Notes under the pieces: generated by a model | The model's database searches: none | Told to the model about the DNA's origin: nothing | The model's input: only the letters and a program-made list of their open reading frames with translations | Shown: positions 1,812-11,755 of the stretch, one piece after another | Numbering within the stretch: the stretch's first letter is position 1 | Layout of the letters: every line of letters starts with the position of its first letter | Translations under genes and position numbers: made by a program | Origin: a virus | DNA: 11,800 bases | Virus genome (UHGV): UHGV-0208676 | Strand: one strand, 5' to 3'

Positions 1812-2876
1812 ATGTCACAGAACTGGATGAGACATTTCGAGCTGCAGCTTGTGGACGGGAACGGTCAGGGAATTGAGCTAAGTGATTTCAAAGTCACCTT
1901 TACGATCGACTGGTTCAACATCAGCAGCGCGTCCCGGGTAGGGACTATCAAAATTTATAACCTCTCGGCAGATACTGTGAACCGAATTACCGGGCAGGAG
2001 TTTTCGAAAGTGCGTCTGATTGCCGGTTACGACGGTATCGCGCCGGAGGTGTCAGCAAGCGACGTAGGGACCGTGCGGGAAGTTGACGCGGCGGACGTGG
2101 GCCAGAGAGATGGCCGCAACTACGGACTGATTTTCAGCGGTGAAATTCGCTACTCGGTCACAGGAAAAGACAGTCCGGTTGATACCTACGTCCTGATTCA
2201 GGCAGCAGATACTGATCTGGCTTTTGCTACCAGTATAACCTCACAGACGCTGGCTGCCGGTTACACGGTCGCTGATGTGAACCGTGCGCTGATGAAAGAC
2301 TTCGAAGCCAAAGGCGCGACCGAAGGCCTGACGCCTGAAATGCCTGCTACTGTATTCCCTCGGGGGCGGGTACTCTTTGGCATGACGCGGCATCTAATGG
2401 ATAACGTAGCCGGACAATGTGGCGCAACATGGCAATTCGTGGACGGTCAGCGCCAGATGGTGGCGAATAACGAATATGTTCACGAAGCGATTGTGCTCAA
2501 CAGCGCTACCGGGCTTATTGGAATGCCGCAGCAGACTATCGGTAACGGCGTAAACGTCCGCGCGCTTATTAATCCGAACATCCGGGTTAACGGGCTCATT
2601 CAGCTGGATCAGGCTTCCGTCTATCGTACCGCGTTGTCGAACAACGATATTGCGATGGCTGGTGGTCAGATCACCGACCAGAACACGGACGGAAATATCA
2701 CGCTCAGCGGCACCACATCGCAGCCTGCCAGCATCGCAACGGATGGCGTTTATATTGTGCGCGGGATTATGTACACTGGCGACACAAGGGGCCAGGCGTG
2801 GTACATGGATATGATGTGTGAAGCGCGTGGCGCGGCGGATCTTGTTTCCTCATCAGCGAGGGAAAGAGGGCTTTAA
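1812..2876 (+). CDS. Putative baseplate hub protein (Mu gp44 / P2 gpD-like) of a contractile tail
   Basis: 354-aa ORF with a GGAG RBS 5 nt upstream, placed between tape measure and spike as in Mu-type tail modules, with similar size to Mu gp44. Assignment is by synteny and size, not by a recognised motif. Confidence 0.45.
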   Translation: MSQNWMRHFELQLVDGNGQGIELSDFKVTFTIDWFNISSASRVGTIKIYNLSADTVNRITGQEFSKVRLIAGYDGIAPEVSASDVGTVREVDAADVGQRDGRNYGLIFSGEIRYSVTGKDSPVDTYVLIQAADTDLAFATSITSQTLAAGYTVADVNRALMKDFEAKGATEGLTPEMPATVFPRGRVLFGMTRHLMDNVAGQCGATWQFVDGQRQMVANNEYVHEAIVLNSATGLIGMPQQTIGNGVNVRALINPNIRVNGLIQLDQASVYRTALSNNDIAMAGGQITDQNTDGNITLSGTTSQPASIATDGVYIVRGIMYTGDTRGQAWYMDMMCEARGAADLVSSSARERGL

Positions 2877-3208
2877 TGAAACGGTTATGTTTGGCGTTAG
2901 TTATGATGGTTACTGCTCCGGCGATGGCTGCAATTCAGTGCGGCAACTACACGATGACCGGTGACGGAATGACTGTTATTAACGGTGAAACTGTCACATC
3001 ACAGAAGATAAAATTTCTGGGAAAAGATGGTGACTATTCAAACATGAAAATGGACATGGGCCTGATGCCTTCCCGTGATGGTAACAATTACGGCTTTGAG
3101 TTTGTGAAACGTAACGGAAAAGCTTTCCTGAACGTCCAGCTGCTGCAGAACAGCATGGACGCGCCGAAAATCATTGGATCTTTCCCGTGTAAAAAGGCGT
3201 TACGCTAA
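2876..3208 (+). CDS. Small secreted protein (110 aa) with N-terminal signal peptide, possible moron
   Basis: N-terminus MKRLCLALVMMVTAPAMAA has a basic n-region, hydrophobic core and AxA signal peptidase I site; two Cys (mature N-terminal region and C-terminus). TAATG overlap with the hub gene stop. GC appears lower than the hub gene. Confidence 0.55.
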   Translation: MKRLCLALVMMVTAPAMAAIQCGNYTMTGDGMTVINGETVTSQKIKFLGKDGDYSNMKMDMGLMPSRDGNNYGFEFVKRNGKAFLNVQLLQNSMDAPKIIGSFPCKKALR

Positions 3209-3245
3209 AGTTTGATGTCAATCTTCCGAGATGAGCGCTTTAAGG

Positions 3246-3274
3246 TTGACGAGATATTGTTCAAAGTTCACAAT
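3246..3274 (+). promoter_or_regulatory. Candidate sigma70-like promoter for the inserted two-gene cassette
   Basis: TTGACG at 3246-3251, 17-nt spacer, CACAAT at 3269-3274 (weak -10, repeated once as cacaatcacaat), about 30 nt upstream of the 3304 start. Sequence pattern only. Confidence 0.25.
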
Positions 3275-3303
3275 CACAATCCCTTTAGTAAGAGAAATAA
3301 TCC

Positions 3304-4077
3304 ATGGCGGCAGGCATCCCATTAGAAAAAGCGCAAAAATATATTGAACAATTCAATGCGCTTCTATTGGATAGGGAAAGTTTAGATCCCTTCACTGAAA
3401 AGAAAATTCGAGAGGAACTTTCTGTCTCTCCAACGCCTGCTACCAACATTGCACTATCTTATCTGGATGCAATAACCGGAAAGATTGAAAGCGCGTTACG
3501 TTATCTCAGGATAAGCCTAGAAGTAAACGATGTAACGTTGGCAATGCACTATCATCACATTTTAATTAATACATTTAGCTATAATGAACTCAAGGATGTC
3601 TATGTCCCGCTGGCAAAGAAGTATCGGACAAAACTCTTTAGTCACAACGCATACAGTTGGGCGTACCGTTGCGGCGAGCGTGAACAGTTAAAATTTTATA
3701 TGGAAGAGCACATTAAGCTTCTTTCTGAATCAGAAGGCAGGAGTAATGCTATGAAGCACAAAGAAGAACTCCTTGCAGAAATGGATAATTTCTATAGCGC
3801 CACACAGTGCTCGAAGGAACAGTTCCAGACCTTAGCATCCATAATCTGGGGCTTGCTAAGTGAATACAAGGCTACGACAGGTTTCGTTCAGCTTAGTGGA
3901 AGCGGTTGCTATGTTGTTGATATTAAAAATCTTGAGCCTAAAACTATTGCCAAAATGAACTTCGACTTGGCTGATAGAGTCTGCGCTGAATCTAAACTGG
4001 ATGATTGTTCCCTGTTAGCTAGATTTACCTCTCCGCGTCAGTTGCATACGGGGGTGAGCTACCATGTCGGTAACTAG
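3304..4077 (+). CDS. Hypothetical protein (257 aa), first gene of an AT-rich accessory cassette
   Basis: ORF in a visibly AT-rich segment compared with flanking baseplate genes; preceded by a 95-bp non-coding gap; 14-nt overlap with the downstream gene. No catalytic motif recognised by eye. Confidence 0.7.
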   Translation: MAAGIPLEKAQKYIEQFNALLLDRESLDPFTEKKIREELSVSPTPATNIALSYLDAITGKIESALRYLRISLEVNDVTLAMHYHHILINTFSYNELKDVYVPLAKKYRTKLFSHNAYSWAYRCGEREQLKFYMEEHIKLLSESEGRSNAMKHKEELLAEMDNFYSATQCSKEQFQTLASIIWGLLSEYKATTGFVQLSGSGCYVVDIKNLEPKTIAKMNFDLADRVCAESKLDDCSLLARFTSPRQLHTGVSYHVGN

Positions 4078-4459
4078 CAATCAGATTCTCGATACCGCTC
4101 GATTATGTCTGTCTGAAAATATTGAGAGTGGATTTCGAAGCGCTATCTCAAGGGCGTATTACAGTATGTTACATGAGTCTATTAGCTCACTTACTGCCAT
4201 ACCGCATTTTACCCATGAGCATCACAAAAATACTGTGGGTTATATGTCAACGCCCTCAGAGTGCAAATCAGAGCCATACCCGACAAATACACTGAAATCC
4301 CTAGCTTTCGTACTTCGCCAGTGGCGGGATGCTAGAAATGAAGCTGACTATGATCTGACGAATGTGACTGTTTCGAAAGAGATGGGACAGGATGCAATCG
4401 AGGCTGCTGAACTCTATTTTGAGCGCTGGGAACAGCTAAAGTCTGCTAGAGTTTCATGA
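4064..4459 (+). CDS. HEPN-like protein (131 aa), second gene of the accessory cassette
   Basis: N-terminal helix motif SAISRAYYSMLHES and C-terminal LRQWRDARNEADYD resemble conserved helices of small HEPN-domain proteins, with Tyr where the canonical Rx4-6H histidine is expected. GGGGTGAG RBS; followed directly by an intrinsic terminator. Confidence 0.65.
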   Translation: MSVTSNQILDTARLCLSENIESGFRSAISRAYYSMLHESISSLTAIPHFTHEHHKNTVGYMSTPSECKSEPYPTNTLKSLAFVLRQWRDARNEADYDLTNVTVSKEMGQDAIEAAELYFERWEQLKSARVS

Positions 4460-4476
4460 ATAAAATTAACGTTATC

Positions 4477-4500
4477 AAACCCGCTTCGGCGGGTTTTTTG
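4477..4500 (+). terminator. Rho-independent terminator after the accessory cassette
   Basis: Stem AAACCCGC (4477-4484), loop TTCG, stem GCGGGTTT (4489-4496), then a T-run to 4499; sits 18 nt after the 4459 stop and upstream of the spike RBS. Confidence 0.8.
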
Positions 4501-4518
4501 CTTTCTGGAGCCTACTAA

Positions 4519-6823: not shown

Positions 6824-7500
6824 GCAAATACACCGAACTAATCACGAACTACCACGCCACCAAACCTAAATTTCTTGCGCATGTTGATCTGATGACCCGG
6901 CCGCTTATTGATGTTGCGGCGGCCACCAGAGGGTTGATTACTGCATTTGATATTGACTCCGCGGTTGGTGTGCAACTTGACATTCTTGGATTGTGGATCG
7001 GACGTAGCCGTGTTGTCAGCCAGCCTATCTCAGGTGTCTATTTCAGCTGGGATACCGACGGGCTTGGATATGATCAGGGTGTATGGCAGGGGCCATACGA
7101 TCCTGATTCCGGATACATGTACCTCAGCGATGAAACTTATCGTGTCATCCTTAAAGCGAAGATTGCGATTAATAACTGGGACGGACGGAATGATTCGCTT
7201 CCGGTAATTCTTGACGCGGCAACAGCAGGATCCGGGCTGCGAATGCAGATAGTCGATAACCAGGACATGACGATATCGGTCTGGGTCTTTCCTGATACTG
7301 ATATTTCAGATGTATCGCGTGAGTTAATTGCGGCAATTAAACAGGGGTATCTAACAGTAAAAGCCGCCGGGGTATGGGCGGGGGGCATTGAAACACCTTC
7401 GGTGGAAACTCCATCGGAAGGCTCTAAATTTTTTGGTTTTGATATGGATAACGAATTCATCAGTGGTTTTGATGTAGGGGCATGGGGAGTATTACTCTGA
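6820..7500 (+). CDS. Baseplate wedge / tail-fibre attachment protein (P2 gpI-like, Mu gp48 / YmfQ-like position)
   Basis: 226-aa ORF overlapping the J-like stop by 4 nt (ATGA) and overlapping the fibre start (TGATG at 7498-7502); canonical position between J and the fibre. Confidence 0.7.
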   Translation: MSKYTELITNYHATKPKFLAHVDLMTRPLIDVAAATRGLITAFDIDSAVGVQLDILGLWIGRSRVVSQPISGVYFSWDTDGLGYDQGVWQGPYDPDSGYMYLSDETYRVILKAKIAINNWDGRNDSLPVILDAATAGSGLRMQIVDNQDMTISVWVFPDTDISDVSRELIAAIKQGYLTVKAAGVWAGGIETPSVETPSEGSKFFGFDMDNEFISGFDVGAWGVLL

Positions 7501-9920
7501 TGGCAAAAAATGACTTTAAAGCATTCGCAACGGGTAAAAATGCCAATGTTATGTCGCAGGAGGAATGGGAAGCGTTGCCTGCGCTTTTATCCGGATTTAC
7601 AGCAGGGAAAGCATCCAGTGCGCAAGTCAATAAGGTTATTCGGCAGGCCAGCTTTATTGCTGCAGCTCTGGCCCAGTTTGTAAGTGACAAAACGCAACGG
7701 GATGTGCTTGATAATGGTGATCTGCCCGGTTTTGTTGAATTGCTGGGATCGGGGTTTGCTGTTGAATACCTGAGCCGCAAGAATCCGTTTGGCGATATCA
7801 AATCGGATGGCACGGTAGAACGCGCTCTTGAAAATCTGGGGTTACAGGATGTAAAAGCTGGTTCATTGAACAATCTGTACACTAACCATTCCCGTAGTGT
7901 CTTAATGGAATTGCCGTTATTATTCCCAGACTACGATACAGTGCTGGCTGCTCAGTCTGGTGCGGAATATATGTATCCACAGGGATTTGTGGTGACAGGA
8001 GAAAAAATCTATCTGAGTTATACCGTTGAGCCAAAGCAGACACGGAACGTTATAGTTCAGTACACAACATCCGGCGAATATGAGGGATATTATTATGTCG
8101 ATAATGGAGGTCGTGGCGTTGTCAGCGAAGGCCTTGTGGTGACAACGGATTACGGTGGATTACGTTTGTTCATGTCAGGAGAAAATGGATTACTGAAACA
8201 GTTTTCGCTTGATGGGGCAATTTCTGGTTCAGTATTGCCGTTAATTGATGAACATGACGTCGGTGTTTACAACCAGTTCAGCTATCGTAAAAACCGCTGG
8301 GTGGTTGAACAGTCAGCGCCGGAAGTGGGAGGCCTGATCACCCGCACAGTATTTGCGGTGTATGATTTTCAGTTTCGTCGGACGGGGACATTCACATTAC
8401 CGTTGCATGATTCCGGATATATCACGGAAAGCACAGACAGCTATGCAAGACGCTTCACAAAACGTCAGGGAATTGCTGTGGGAGACGATTATATTGCCTG
8501 TTCTTATGGTGGCTATTTTAATACCGGGGCATCAGCCGGATTTAACCAGTTTCAGGGGGTTAAGGTCTTTTCTCCGGATGGAGTAAAGCTGCAGGAATCC
8601 ATTCTTCATCCCCAAAAAATGATAGATGTGCTTACCAGCCAGGGTTTTACACCTTCGCGCATTGAGAACGAAGGAATTTGTATTTCTGACGACGGCGGCA
8701 GTATATATTCGCTTTATATCTTTCTGGAGCGTGGGTTACCACAGGCTTATCAGAAAGGAATTGTTCTGATGAAAGAGTTCAGTACTGGCAGAGATGCTAT
8801 TGATTTTCGTCAGGCAGCCTGGTTGTACACGGGGTTTGATGTGTCTCATGCCAGTATTGGAACATTTCCCCGTAGTGCCCAGGGGTTGGTAAATCCGGTG
8901 CTGGGGACTGTATTCACATCACTGTCTGAAATTCTGGCATATATGCGCTCTGTGAGTCAGAAATGGTTTTGTCTGCATACAACCACGACACCGATTAAAG
9001 ATCTGAGTGGAAATGATATTCCTGCTGACAATTATGTGTTCATCAAGAATGCTAATAACCAGACATTCTATATAACGCAGGAGTCAGCTGAAGGTGGAAT
9101 AAAATATAAAGCTGTCACCACAGGCAGCGGAGAATATGGTTTTCAGCGACAAAGAGAGGCAACCTGGTCCAATGTTATCACCATCGCACAAAAGAGCGAT
9201 GGTGAGGACCAGTTTAATCGTATTGTTGCCGCATCGAAAAGTGGTTCAGGTAACAATCAGGATAAAATACTGGTAGTTGACCAGCAGGCATCAGAGGGGA
9301 ATAACACACTGATAATTGGCGGTGCTTCATCTGTGTTCAGGTCAGCGACAGTGATTGATTTTGCAACGAATCAGGATGCAAATGCCACTGGAGGAGAAAA
9401 AAGATGGCGCATAGATTCATCAGGAAATCTCCGCCCTTATACAGATAATACGTATTCGATCGGTTATGCCTCATGGCGACCCGCACAGGTTTATGCAGCT
9501 ACAGGAAGTATCAGTACATCAGACCGGACTCGTAAACAGGACGAAACAATTCTGTCGGATGCAGAAAAAAGGGTTGCCAGAAAGTTGCTCGGGTATATCT
9601 GTCGGTTCCGTTTCAGGGATGCTGTGTCCAGCAAAGGGAATGCTGCCAGATGGCATGTAGGAGTGATTGCCCAGGACGTACAGAAGGTATTCTCTGAGGA
9701 AGGGCTGGATGCTTTTGATTACGGTATTTTGTGTCGTGATGAATATCCGGCGGAATATGAAGTGGTTTACGGGACTCGTATGGAGCTTGGTCCTGATGGA
9801 CTCCTTGCAATGGAAGAATACGATACCGGAGAGCGTAAGCTGGTCAGGGAGGCTGGCGAAATAATGTCTGTAAGGAATGATGAGCTGCATTATTTCATGT
9901 TGGCATCGCTGGCCAGTTAA
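7500..9920 (+). CDS. Tail fibre / tailspike protein with C-terminal intramolecular chaperone (peptidase S74-like) domain
   Basis: Start placed at ATG 7500 (GGGGAG RBS 10 nt upstream, TGATG coupling) rather than the ORF-track 7482. Conserved fibre N-terminal anchor (FATGKNANVMSQEEWEALP...KVIRQASFIAAALAQFV). C-terminal 133 aa (9519-9917) has S-D-x3-K (STSDRTRK) and GVIAQDVQKVF motifs typical of auto-cleaving chaperone domains. Confidence 0.75.
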   Translation: MAKNDFKAFATGKNANVMSQEEWEALPALLSGFTAGKASSAQVNKVIRQASFIAAALAQFVSDKTQRDVLDNGDLPGFVELLGSGFAVEYLSRKNPFGDIKSDGTVERALENLGLQDVKAGSLNNLYTNHSRSVLMELPLLFPDYDTVLAAQSGAEYMYPQGFVVTGEKIYLSYTVEPKQTRNVIVQYTTSGEYEGYYYVDNGGRGVVSEGLVVTTDYGGLRLFMSGENGLLKQFSLDGAISGSVLPLIDEHDVGVYNQFSYRKNRWVVEQSAPEVGGLITRTVFAVYDFQFRRTGTFTLPLHDSGYITESTDSYARRFTKRQGIAVGDDYIACSYGGYFNTGASAGFNQFQGVKVFSPDGVKLQESILHPQKMIDVLTSQGFTPSRIENEGICISDDGGSIYSLYIFLERGLPQAYQKGIVLMKEFSTGRDAIDFRQAAWLYTGFDVSHASIGTFPRSAQGLVNPVLGTVFTSLSEILAYMRSVSQKWFCLHTTTTPIKDLSGNDIPADNYVFIKNANNQTFYITQESAEGGIKYKAVTTGSGEYGFQRQREATWSNVITIAQKSDGEDQFNRIVAASKSGSGNNQDKILVVDQQASEGNNTLIIGGASSVFRSATVIDFATNQDANATGGEKRWRIDSSGNLRPYTDNTYSIGYASWRPAQVYAATGSISTSDRTRKQDETILSDAEKRVARKLLGYICRFRFRDAVSSKGNAARWHVGVIAQDVQKVFSEEGLDAFDYGILCRDEYPAEYEVVYGTRMELGPDGLLAMEEYDTGERKLVREAGEIMSVRNDELHYFMLASLAS

Positions 9921-9928
9921 TAATATTA

Positions 9929-9957
9929 ATGTAAGGAGTGATACAAGCTCCTTACAT
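9929..9957. repeat. Perfect 10-bp inverted repeat (hairpin) just downstream of the tail-fibre stop
   Basis: ATGTAAGGAG (9929-9938) and CTCCTTACAT (9948-9957) separated by a 9-nt loop; no T-run follows, so not a canonical intrinsic terminator. Confidence 0.5.
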
Positions 9958-10115
9958 CATGCATTTATGCGATTGTGCGTTATCCCATTGTTTGTTGCTG
10001 AGAGTGAAACACCGGAAACATACTGGGTGGATTGAAATTTTCGGGCGTGGCAAGCGTATGAATATGCCGTGGTGGGGCGGTTTTGATCCGCGCGCGTGCG
10101 ATGTGGCAAGCCTGA

Positions 10116-10442
10116 TGGATTTTGCTGCGCCAGCGTGGCGTGAATTTCCGAAGCCTGACTGACAGTATTGATACCAGTACCCCAATGGGCCGTTTCTTTT
10201 TTCATGTGATGGGTGCCCTGGCTGAAATGGAGCGTGAACTGATTGTTGAACGAACAAAAGCTGGACTGGAAGCTGCTCGCGCACAGGGACGAATTGGCGG
10301 TCGCCGTCCCAAACTTTCACCAGAACAATGGGCACAGGCCGGACGATTAATTACATCAGGAGTTCCTCGCCAGAAGGTGGCGATCATCTATGATGTTGGC
10401 GTATCGACTTTGTATAAGAAGTTTCCGGTCGGAGATAAATGA
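10116..10442 (+). pseudogene. DNA invertase (Pin/Gin/Hin serine recombinase family) remnant, C-terminal part only
   Basis: Translation VNFRSLTDSIDTSTPMGRFFFHVMGALAEMERELIVERTKAGLEAARAQGRIGGRRPKLSPEQWAQAGRL...STLYKK matches the C-terminal half of Pin/Gin-type invertases including the HTH region. The frame hits an in-frame TGA at 10113-10115 and the upstream translation has no invertase-like sequence, so the N-terminal catalytic Ser region is absent. The ORF-track start at 10122 is a TTG. Confidence 0.8.
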
Positions 10443-10740
10443 AACCGCAGCACGTCGTATGCAAGAACGTGCCACGGCTGGCTGATGGACGTTCGATAGC
10501 GCGAGTTTGAATGAAAATCAGCCGGAGATGATTTTACATAATTGCTACGGAATTATTCAATACAGGGATTGCTTGTGTCTGCATGGATTGACCTGAAATA
10601 GTCCCGAAAATTTCTCTAAAAAACTCGAAAACAATGGTAACTAATTGAATGTATTAATATGCAATGGTACGTGTTTGGGATTAAAAGATGAACGTGATTT
10701 TGTTTAACACATTAATTTTAAATGATTTTCTTGTTTGTTG

Positions 10741-10772
10741 ACGAAAACAGGAATCGTGTTCGGTCTCTTTTT
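10741..10772 (+). ncRNA. sdsR: Fragment resembling the 3' terminator hairpin of sRNA SdsR (RyeB); possible prophage attachment-site duplicate
   Basis: CGAAAACAGGAATCGTGTTCGGTCTCTTTTT resembles, from memory, the SdsR 3' end (CGAAUACAGGAAUCGUAUUCGGUCUCUUUUU) with a few mismatches. Sequence just upstream does not resemble the SdsR 5' part as I recall it. In E. coli K-12 the sdsR/ryeA locus lies next to pphA. Confidence 0.4.
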
Positions 10773-10906
10773 ATCTGTTAAAAGCCAGAAGCATTCCCTT
10801 CGCTGACTTTATAGTCAACCATAACACACACTCTACTGTCTGAGTCCAGCGTTTTTTAACATTCTTGTTAAGATTATGTGATCTTTAGCGCGGGAGGAAA
10901 ATATTG

Positions 10907-11563
10907 ATGAAACAGCCTGCGCCCGTTTATCAGAGAATTGCGGGTCATCAATGGCGACATATCTGGCTTTCAGGCGATATACACGGTTGTCTTGAGCAGT
11001 TGCGCCGCAAATTATGGCATTGTCGTTTTGATCCGTGGCGAGATTTACTTATCTCAGTGGGAGACGTTATCGATCGTGGGCCGCAAAGTTTACGTTGCCT
11101 GCAGTTACTGGAACAACATTGGGTTCGTGCGGTAAGAGGCAATCATGAACAGATGGCGATGGATGCGCTGGCATCCCGGCAGATGTCTTTATGGTTGATA
11201 AATGGCGGCGACTGGTTTATTGCGCTGGCAGATAATCAACAGAAACAAGCGAAAACGGCGCTGGAAAAATGTCAGCATTTGCCCTTTATTCTTGAATTAC
11301 ACAGTCGCACCGGCAAACATGTTATTGCTCATGCCGATTATCCAGATGATGTCTATGAATGGCAAAAGGACGTCGATTTGCATCAGGTCTTGTGGAGCCG
11401 CTCGCGATTAGGTGAACGCCAAAAAGGGCAGGGAATTGCAGGTGCTGATCATTTCTGGTTTGGTCATACACCTTTGCGCCATCGCGTGGATATTGGCAAC
11501 CTGCATTATATTGATACCGGTGCTGTCTTTGGGGGAGAACTGACTCTTGTGCAATTGCAATAA
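10907..11563 (+). CDS. pphA: Serine/threonine protein phosphatase 1 (PP1/lambda-phosphatase-like metallophosphatase)
   Basis: Motifs GDIHG, GDVIDRG and GNHE present; 218 aa from ATG 10907 (GGAGG RBS about 9 nt upstream; the ORF-track 10904 is a TTG one codon earlier). N-terminus MKQPAPVYQRIAGHQWRHIWLSGDIHGC matches my recollection of E. coli PrpA; convergent with a yebW-like gene as in K-12. Confidence 0.85.
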   Translation: MKQPAPVYQRIAGHQWRHIWLSGDIHGCLEQLRRKLWHCRFDPWRDLLISVGDVIDRGPQSLRCLQLLEQHWVRAVRGNHEQMAMDALASRQMSLWLINGGDWFIALADNQQKQAKTALEKCQHLPFILELHSRTGKHVIAHADYPDDVYEWQKDVDLHQVLWSRSRLGERQKGQGIAGADHFWFGHTPLRHRVDIGNLHYIDTGAVFGGELTLVQLQ

Positions 11564-11755
11564 TTAAAAATCACCGTATTCCTGTGCAGGTCGCCAGAAA
11601 CCATCTATAAAATCCTCAATCGGAAAACAACCGCCATGGCGGATCCGTTGATCGCTCATAGAATAAAGACACTGCTGTTCCGTGTTGTAGACATCCACAA
11701 CAATATCTTCACAACCGCCATCCAGGTAGCAAACAAAAAGTACCAGCGCGAACAT
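11564..11755 (-). CDS. yebW: Small Cys-containing protein of unknown function (63 aa), YebW-like
   Basis: 63-aa ORF convergent with and abutting pphA, matching the K-12 yebW-pphA arrangement as recalled; GGGGA SD-like sequence upstream of the ATG on the minus strand. Confidence 0.6.
   Translation of the reverse strand: MFALVLFVCYLDGGCEDIVVDVYNTEQQCLYSMSDQRIRHGGCFPIEDFIDGFWRPAQEYGDF

What the first reader, a model, noticed from the sequence alone, without database searches (positions are those of the whole stretch)
3304..4077. 257-aa partner protein with no recognisable motif
No nucleotide-binding, nuclease or nucleotidyltransferase motif could be identified by eye; the GSG at LSGSGCYVVD is too close to the following Asp to be a minimal nucleotidyltransferase signature. 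The protein looks helix-rich. Its 14-nt overlap with the HEPN-like gene implies coupled expression, so it may be a sensor, regulator or antitoxin-like partner.
Basis: inference. Interest (0 to 1): 0.55.

Follow-up and report, generated by a model that had tools for sequence, protein, structure and literature searches.

The report
TPR/pseudo-nucleotidyltransferase partner of phage HEPN gene
The 257-aa gene is real and always travels with a small HEPN (putative RNase) gene as a mobile two-gene cassette in prophage tail regions; its predicted fold (protein-binding repeats plus a catalytically dead, antitoxin-like domain) suggests it holds and controls the HEPN protein, probably as an uncharacterised toxin-antitoxin or phage-exclusion module.

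Summary
ORF 3304-4077 (+) encodes 257 aa, overlaps the 131-aa ORF by 14 nt, and has no significant Pfam, NCBIfam or PADLOC hit; it matches only phrog_17809, which has no known function.

The partner is a PF05168/AF0298-type ("class II") HEPN protein. In 56 of 56 related loci (23-100% identity) the two genes overlap by 4-38 nt and diverge in step (r = 0.98). dN/dS, measured in eight close relatives, is 0.03-0.10 for both.

The cassette has low GC and its own terminator. It occupies several different phage tail-module junctions, and once lies beside SoFic.

Best reading: a non-catalytic, TPR-sensor-bearing variant of the HEPN/MNT toxin-antitoxin system that acts in phage exclusion. This function is inferred, not shown.

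The parts
3209..4518 (+). Two-gene cargo cassette (moron) between the conserved lipoprotein gene and the baseplate spike gene
   Evidence: GC is 0.40-0.43 here against 0.50-0.56 in the flanks. Phages vB_EcoM-606R2 and SEN34 share the flanks but carry other genes at this spot.
3246..3301 (+). Two overlapping sigma-70-like promoter candidates in the 95-nt spacer upstream of the 257-aa gene (weak evidence)
   Evidence: TTGACG-17-CACAAT and ATCACA-17-AATAAT each match 9 of 12 positions. The number of sites in the region is no higher than in shuffles, so only their position is suggestive.
3304..4077 (+). 257-aa gene: TPR-like plus MNT-like (pseudo-nucleotidyltransferase) protein, phrog_17809
3322..3720 (+). 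N-terminal domain, residues 7-139: eight helices forming four TPR-like hairpins
3709..3741 (+). Junction motif HIKLLSESEGR (residues 136-146), the most conserved stretch among close family members
   Evidence: Invariant H136, I137, L139, L140, S141, E144 and R146 in A1; degenerate in distant members.
3739..4029 (+). C-terminal domain, residues 146-242: alpha-alpha-beta-turn-beta-alpha-beta, MNT/nucleotidyltransferase-like fold without catalytic residues
3892..3921 (+). LSGSGCYVVD (residues 197-206): end of beta1, turn, and beta2; possible vestige of the NTase G-S...D-x-D site
   Evidence: Strands at 192-197 and 202-207. S198, Y203 and D206 are conserved in close members; D/E206 is lost in the most distant ones.
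4064..4459 (+). 131-aa HEPN gene (PF05168 / UPF0332 / AF0298-type, 'class II' HEPN), phrog_5176
4325..4351 (+). HEPN motif R88-D-A-R91-N-E-A-D95-Y96, with D in place of the canonical H and an invariant Tyr
   Evidence: Invariant in A3. R91, D95 and Y96 are kept in partners of the most distant family members. This matches the AF0298-type description in PMC3710099.
4477..4506 (+). Intrinsic terminator (8-bp, GC-rich stem, loop TTCG, T-run) closing the cassette before the spike gene
   Evidence: with the sequence. The sub-threshold Rfam hits here are driven by this hairpin.
2876..3208 (+). Flanking 110-aa lipoprotein gene (STY1065/STY2022 family, phrog_3443); conserved neighbour, not part of the pair

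Best explanation
The 257-aa protein is the non-enzymatic control subunit of a mobile two-gene HEPN module carried as a moron by temperate phages of Enterobacterales and Aeromonas.

Shown:
- It is a conserved gene under purifying selection.
- Its stop codon always overlaps the start of a PF05168/AF0298-type HEPN gene.
- The pair moves as a unit between different phage tail-module junctions.

Predicted from structure:
- Residues 7-139 form four TPR-like hairpins, a protein- or peptide-binding scaffold.
- Residues 146-242 adopt an alpha-beta-turn-beta-alpha-beta fold that best matches MNT, the antitoxin of HEPN/MNT systems.
- The GSX10DXD catalytic motif is missing and no acidic residue is conserved across the family.

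Inferred mechanism:
1. The MNT-like pseudo-enzyme domain binds the HEPN protein, a presumed RNA-targeting effector that uses R91/D95/Y96 plus the conserved His at 53/54. It keeps HEPN inactive by direct binding (type II-like) rather than by AMPylation (type VII).
2. The TPR domain senses a trigger, most plausibly a protein of a superinfecting phage, or loss of the labile partner.
3. HEPN is then released and attacks RNA, aborting the infection or killing cells that lose the prophage.
4. In the lysogen the cassette would be expressed from its own promoter and end at its own terminator.
For: Gene reality and family.

Obligate pairing: 56 of 56 loci have a 4-38 nt overlap (mode 14), and the identities of the two proteins correlate at r = 0.98. 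Partners of members at 21-30% identity are still HEPN homologues (E 1e-25 to 1e-50).

Partner identity: HEPN. Its closest solved relative, 9xbd, was co-crystallised with a canonical MNT chain.

Non-catalytic nature: across 31 diverse members only N219 and L222 are invariant.

Moron features: low GC, terminator and promoter-like sites, and a variable hotspot.

Mobility and defence-like context: the pair sits at a myovirus hub-spike junction, at two different siphovirus tail junctions, in a Proteus prophage moron region, and next to a SoFic homologue with Ogr/Delta genes.

Background: HEPN/MNT biology and the 'class II' pairs are described in PMC7641770 and PMC3710099.
Against: - There is no experimental or complex-model evidence that the two proteins bind, that the HEPN protein is toxic or an RNase, or that the cassette protects against phage.
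- Class II (PF05168) HEPN proteins lack RX4H and had not been validated as toxins in PMC7641770.
- No PADLOC model matches either protein.
- Promoter-like sites are no more frequent than in shuffles.
Confidence: 0.5

Rival explanations
1. A plain addiction (toxin-antitoxin) module with no sensing role. The 257-aa protein is a labile antitoxin of the HEPN toxin, the pair merely stabilises the prophage or element, and the TPR domain serves oligomerisation or stability.
For: The organisation is a tight two-gene overlap with the larger 'antitoxin-position' gene first, as in MNT-HEPN operons. The pair is carried only on mobile elements.
Against: The pair sits at moron and defence-type hotspots that hold alternative cargo, and once lies next to SoFic. 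A conserved 130-residue TPR domain is more than most antitoxins need. There is no DNA-binding domain for autoregulation.
Confidence: 0.17
2. Not a toxin system. The class II HEPN protein (no RX4H) is a non-catalytic RNA or nucleotide binder, and the TPR protein is its adaptor. Together they modulate host or phage gene expression or RNA metabolism for the prophage's benefit. The MNT resemblance is a coincidence of a common small alpha/beta fold.
For: The canonical His of RX4-6H is replaced by Asp. PMC3710099 notes that HEPN domains lacking the motif may act non-catalytically. The fold match is modest and Foldseek is insignificant.
Confidence: 0.2
3. The 257-aa protein is an active nucleotidyltransferase that AMPylates Tyr96 of the HEPN protein, as MntA does in type VII systems, using a divergent active site.
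For: It has an MNT-like fold and occupies the MNT gene position. An invariant Tyr directly follows the HEPN motif. Class II HEPN proteins keep a Tyr thought to be adenylylatable.
Against: GSX10DXD is absent. Beta2 carries a single D/E that is lost in distant members, beta3 has no acidic residue, and only N219 and L222 are invariant family-wide. hhalign and Pfam are negative for NTP_transf_2.
Confidence: 0.06
4. A phage structural or assembly factor, such as a tail or baseplate chaperone, encoded where it is used.
For: It lies inside tail gene modules, on the same strand as the tail genes.
Against: It is absent from close relatives with about 98% identical flanking baseplate genes. It occurs at different positions in unrelated tail modules and outside tail modules. 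It has atypical GC and its own terminator. It matches no structural or assembly family.
Confidence: 0.03

Closest known systems
Class II HEPN/MNT pairs (PF05168 HEPN plus PF01909 MNT; e.g. AF0298/UPF0332 proteins; PDB 9xbd HEPN plus nucleotidyltransferase complex)
   Same: The 131-aa partner belongs to this HEPN type: PF05168 hits, profile E 3e-7 to 9xbd and 6e-5 to AF0298, D in place of H, and a conserved Tyr. The upstream gene overlaps the HEPN gene. The upstream protein's C-terminal domain has an MNT-like fold.
   Different: The upstream protein is 257 aa rather than under 150 aa. It has an N-terminal TPR-like domain, lacks GSX10DXD, and has no sequence similarity to MNT. It is phage-borne in Enterobacterales, whereas PMC7641770 describes class II pairs as widely distributed in hyperthermophilic bacteria and archaea.
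[quoted passage not shown]
   Different: HepT is PF01934/PF08780 with RX4HXY, whereas here the motif is R-x3-D-Y in a PF05168 protein. MntA neutralises by poly-AMPylation through GSX10DXD, which is absent here, so neutralisation would have to be by binding.
HEPN families with TPR/Sel1 partners catalogued by Anantharaman et al. 2013 (AbiU2 with a Sel1-repeat gene; LA2681 fused to or in an operon with TPR)
   Same: A HEPN effector is genomically coupled to a helical-repeat protein in conflict-type contexts.
   Different: These are other HEPN clades with a canonical Rx4-6H motif, and the partners have no MNT-like domain. The present pair is not listed there.
Tha (tail-activated HEPN anti-phage system of Staphylococcus aureus prophages; PMC11087260)
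   Same: It is a prophage-encoded HEPN-based system that protects lysogens and is triggered by a phage protein (abstract). It is a functional analogy for the proposed role.
   Different: The host and HEPN family differ, and no TPR/MNT-like partner is described in the abstract. No homology was tested or claimed.
DefensePredictor DS-28 (E. coli HEPN family nuclease of 163 aa plus a 252-aa hypothetical protein; PMC13092281)
   Same: It is a validated two-gene E. coli defence system built from a small HEPN protein and a partner of about 250 aa.
   Different: The gene order is reversed (HEPN first). The HEPN protein is Csx1-like with an RNSVAH motif. By inspection, the partner sequence shows no evident resemblance to the 257-aa protein. 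The accessions of the present protein are absent from the supplements that are held as text.

Membership tests
Minimal nucleotidyltransferase / MntA antitoxin (PF01909) | GSX10DXD catalytic motif plus a third acidic residue on beta3 | tested here: not met
   The region reads S198-G-S-G-C-Y-V-V-D206-I-K. There is a single acidic residue, which is lost in distant members, and beta3 (LLARF) has none. The motif definition is from PMC7641770.
Minimal nucleotidyltransferase / MntA antitoxin (PF01909) | Sequence-profile similarity to NTP_transf_2 / MNT | tested here: not met
   There is no Pfam hit even at E <= 10 for 11 members. hhalign of the C-terminal domain against five PDB MNT sequences plus one consensus-like MNT sequence that I composed gives 0.07% probability. 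A PDB profile search finds no MNT.
Minimal nucleotidyltransferase / MntA antitoxin (PF01909) | Pol-beta-type nucleotidyltransferase fold (alpha-beta-turn-beta-X-beta core) | tested here: inconclusive
Minimal nucleotidyltransferase / MntA antitoxin (PF01909) | Gene immediately upstream of, and overlapping, a HEPN gene | tested here: met
   56 of 56 loci overlap by 4-38 nt.
TPR (tetratricopeptide-like helical repeat) proteins | Stacked helix-turn-helix hairpins with structural similarity to solved TPR domains | tested here: met
TPR (tetratricopeptide-like helical repeat) proteins | Pfam TPR-clan match above the gathering threshold | tested here: not met
   Only sub-threshold TPR_12/TPR_14/TPR_2/Sel1 hits appear in distant members (E 0.03-0.2). 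The profile hits designed TPR proteins at E 0.006.
HEPN PF05168 / AF0298-type (partner protein) | Profile similarity to PF05168/UPF0332 proteins | tested here: met
   9 of 27 members hit PF05168 (best E 2e-5). PDB hits are 9xbd at 3e-7 and 2hsb (AF0298) at 6e-5. IMG names it 'UPF0332 family'.
HEPN PF05168 / AF0298-type (partner protein) | Conserved R with D replacing the canonical H, plus an alternative conserved His N-terminal to the motif | tested here: met
   R88, R91, D95 and Y96 are invariant, as are H37, H53 and H54. R91, D95, Y96 and one His are kept in the most distant partners. The criterion is from PMC3710099.
HEPN PF05168 / AF0298-type (partner protein) | RNase activity or toxicity | not testable with these tools
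   This needs expression and cleavage assays.
Known anti-phage defence systems (PADLOC-DB v2.0.0) | Match of either protein to a defence-system model | tested here: not met
   There are no hits for the window proteins. For distant pairs there are only two weak hits above E = 0.001 (Cas10_Id at 0.0013 and HEPN_IX at 0.0019).
Phage structural / assembly proteins | Match to a structural or assembly family, or conserved presence in the tail module | tested here: not met
   The PHROG matches have unknown function. The genes are absent from near-identical tail modules.

The most novel reading that the evidence does not exclude
This family would be a previously unrecognised branch of HEPN/MNT systems. 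In it the nucleotidyltransferase antitoxin has become a pseudo-enzyme fused to a TPR sensor, so control of a class II HEPN effector has switched from AMPylation to trigger-sensitive binding. Temperate phages would spread it through tail-module moron hotspots as a superinfection-exclusion (abortive infection) system. It would also give the first functional handle on the class II PF05168 HEPN proteins, which had not been validated as toxins in 2020 (PMC7641770).
Probability: 0.3. Interest if true: 0.65.

Novelty: new variant of a known kind. Interest (0 to 1): 0.5.

Why it matters
[quoted passage not shown] Even so, its PF05168 'class II' branch had no demonstrated activity or biological role as of that 2020 paper.

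This cassette offers a tractable E. coli example. A class II-type HEPN protein is paired with a repeat-bearing, apparently catalytically dead, MNT-like protein. The pair is carried by prophages at hotspots that exchange accessory cargo.

If it proves to be a defence or exclusion module, three things follow:
- a new system is added to the phage-defence catalogue;
- enzyme-to-pseudo-enzyme evolution of an antitoxin is documented;
- the hub-spike junction of this prophage group is flagged as a place to look for further systems.

If it proves inert, it is simply one more uncharacterised moron.

Tried and rejected
- Pfam, NCBIfam and PADLOC scans of both proteins found nothing significant.
- A PDB sequence-profile search with the C-terminal domain gave only chance-level proteasome coiled-coil hits.
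- hhalign of the C-terminal domain against an alignment of five PDB MNT sequences plus a consensus-like sequence I composed was negative.
- Foldseek of the C-terminal model against the PDB found nothing with E < 0.1.
- The afdb50 library was unavailable.
- A profile search of the 5.8-billion-protein collection with 31 diverse members added only a few more Enterobacterales sequences. It found no fusions and no Pfam-annotated relatives that would link the family to canonical MNTs.
- DefensePredictor supplements do not contain the protein's accessions. DS-28 looked similar in outline but differs in gene order, and by inspection its partner sequence shows no evident resemblance.
- Literature searches for UPF0332 plus HEPN, and for HEPN/TPR/prophage combinations, found no description of this pair.
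- Rfam gave only sub-threshold hits caused by the terminator hairpin, so there is no RNA antitoxin candidate.
- The repeat search found no flanking direct or inverted repeats that would mark an insertion mechanism.
- A model of the two-protein complex could not be made with the available tools.

Full report
**Observation.** The window carries the baseplate part of an E. coli prophage. It is 100% identical to strains BH100, F11 and Ecol_542. The module contains a Dit-like protein, a plug, a hub, a spike, Baseplate_J, DUF2612 and a tail fibre. ORF 3304-4077 (+) encodes 257 aa and overlaps the 131-aa ORF 4064-4459 by 14 nt. 'LSGSGCYVVD' is residues 197-206. Neither protein has a significant match in Pfam, NCBIfam or PADLOC. 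Both fall in PHROG families of unknown function, phrog_17809 and phrog_5176. The 257-aa gene is real. About 50 homologue clusters of 256-261 aa exist in Enterobacterales and Aeromonas. The N-terminus MAAGIP is conserved. dN/dS is 0.055-0.098 for this gene and 0.029-0.10 for its neighbour.

**Context.** The pair lies between the conserved lipoprotein gene (2876-3208) and the spike gene (4519). Here GC drops to 0.40-0.43, against 0.50-0.56 in the flanks. Phages vB_EcoM-606R2 and SEN34 share the flanking baseplate genes, at about 98% and 68-89% identity respectively, but carry other small genes at this position. This junction is therefore a cargo hotspot. A strong intrinsic terminator (4477-4506) follows the 131-aa gene, and two sigma-70-like sites lie in the 95-nt upstream spacer. 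The number of promoter-like sites is not above chance. No RNA family and no flanking repeats were found.

**Coupling.** Fifty-six loci were collected from E. coli genomes, species-representative genomes, viral contigs and metagenome assemblies. In every one the 257-aa homologue is followed by a homologue of the 131-aa protein whose start overlaps the upstream stop by 4-38 nt (mode 14). The identities of the two proteins to the window copies correlate at r = 0.98. The pair occurs in several settings:
- at the myovirus hub-spike junction;
- after the tape-measure and lipoprotein genes of one siphovirus type;
- before the tape-measure gene of another siphovirus type;
- in a moron-rich region of a Proteus prophage;
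- next to a SoFic defence homologue (E 1e-47) in an element with Ogr/Delta genes.

It therefore behaves as one mobile functional unit, not as a tail component.

The order alpha-beta-turn-beta-X-beta is, from my knowledge of SCOP fold d.218, the core of the nucleotidyltransferase fold. I also classed Rel, FAM46C, CdnE and RsfS/iojap as that fold from memory.

The resemblance is structural only:
- Foldseek finds nothing better than E 0.1;
- hhalign against MNT sequences gives 0.07% probability;
- no member hits PF01909.

The MntA catalytic signature GSX10DXD (PMC7641770) is absent. The turn reads S198-G-S-G. Beta2 has a single D206, which is lost in distant members, and beta3 has no acidic residue. 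Across 31 diverse members only N219 and L222 are invariant. The protein is therefore best read as non-enzymatic.

**Partner.** The 131-aa protein is a PF05168/UPF0332 HEPN protein. It has invariant R88, R91, N92, D95 and Y96, plus H37, H53 and H54. This is the AF0298-type pattern described by Anantharaman et al.: D replaces the canonical H, and an alternative His comes from the insert between helices 2 and 3. Yao et al. call such pairs class II HEPN/MNT. They lack RX4HXY, keep a Tyr, and had not been validated as toxins. The closest solved relative, 9xbd, was crystallised with a canonical MNT chain, and 9xbc is the Tyr-to-Phe variant of the DY motif.

**Mechanism.** The best-supported reading is a variant HEPN/MNT module. 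The MNT-position protein has lost catalysis and gained a TPR domain. It would restrain the HEPN effector by binding rather than by AMPylation. The TPR domain would act as the trigger-sensing or partner-binding surface. The result would be phage exclusion, abortive infection or addiction. The following steps are inferred, not shown: physical interaction, HEPN toxicity or RNase activity, the trigger, and expression in the lysogen. The rivals are a pure addiction module, a non-toxic RNA-binding or regulatory pair, a divergent active AMPylator, and a structural factor. They are weighed in the rival explanations section.

**Comparison and novelty.** The module works most like HEPN/MNT toxin-antitoxin systems. 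The 257-aa protein fails the sequence and motif tests for MNT membership. The partner passes the tests for PF05168 HEPN. HEPN proteins coupled to TPR or Sel1 proteins are known for other HEPN clades. Prophage HEPN defence triggered by phage proteins is known from Tha. A superficially similar validated E. coli system, DS-28, has the reverse gene order, and by inspection its partner sequence shows no evident resemblance. I found no description of this pair in the literature searched. I rate it a new variant of a known kind, of moderate interest. The architecture is well supported. The function is plausible but untested.

Noticed in passing
window 4477-4506: A strong rho-independent terminator (AAACCCGC-TTCG-GCGGGTTT plus a T-run) sits inside the tail operon, between the HEPN gene and the spike gene. 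Late tail transcription would have to read through it.
   Followed up: partly
window 4064-4459; L001 7265-7660; L049 1765-2160: RefSeq/PGAP records of E. coli F11 and RIVM_C029670 annotate the 257-aa gene but not the overlapping 131-aa HEPN ORF. GenBank and IMG entries for the exact protein do exist (AQV47925.1, 'UPF0332 family'), and the ORF is under purifying selection.
   Followed up: partly
protein collection, cluster of P0001: The 257-aa and 131-aa proteins are filed in one 90%-identity cluster, probably a clustering artefact. This may be why the exact 131-aa sequence did not appear in the homologue search.
   Followed up: no
window 2876-3208; L006 5419-5838; L030 5349-5825; L040 5411-5839: A lipoprotein-like gene (signal peptide ending in a Cys) lies immediately upstream of the pair. 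This holds at the myovirus hotspot (phrog_3443, STY1065/STY2022 family) and, with non-homologous proteins, in siphovirus contexts. These may be superinfection-exclusion lipoproteins sharing the same moron spots.
   Followed up: no
window 9938-10442 and 7482-9920: The Pin/Gin-type invertase is 5'-truncated: only the last 56 residues of the resolvase domain plus HTH_7 remain. The tail fibre is an 812-aa protein with a Peptidase_S74 chaperone domain. The related prophage in L001 has an intact pinE and a different set of fibre and assembly genes.
   Followed up: partly
L056 3170-4567 and 5001-6171: A pair at 23% identity to the window's lies next to a SoFic-like Fic protein (PADLOC E 1e-47) and near Ogr/Delta genes. 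This suggests a defence hotspot of a P2/P4-like element.
   Followed up: partly
window 10904-11563 and 11564-11755: A calcineurin-like Ser/Thr phosphatase gene and a DUF1482 gene follow a low-GC stretch (0.38 at 10501-11000). They may be further cargo near the prophage end.
   Followed up: no
PDB 9xbc / 9xbd: The closest solved relatives of the 131-aa protein differ only by Tyr to Phe at the DY of the RNxxDY motif. 9xbd also contains a canonical MNT chain. Someone is evidently studying modification or catalysis at this Tyr in a class II-type pair, but no paper was found in the library.
   Followed up: partly
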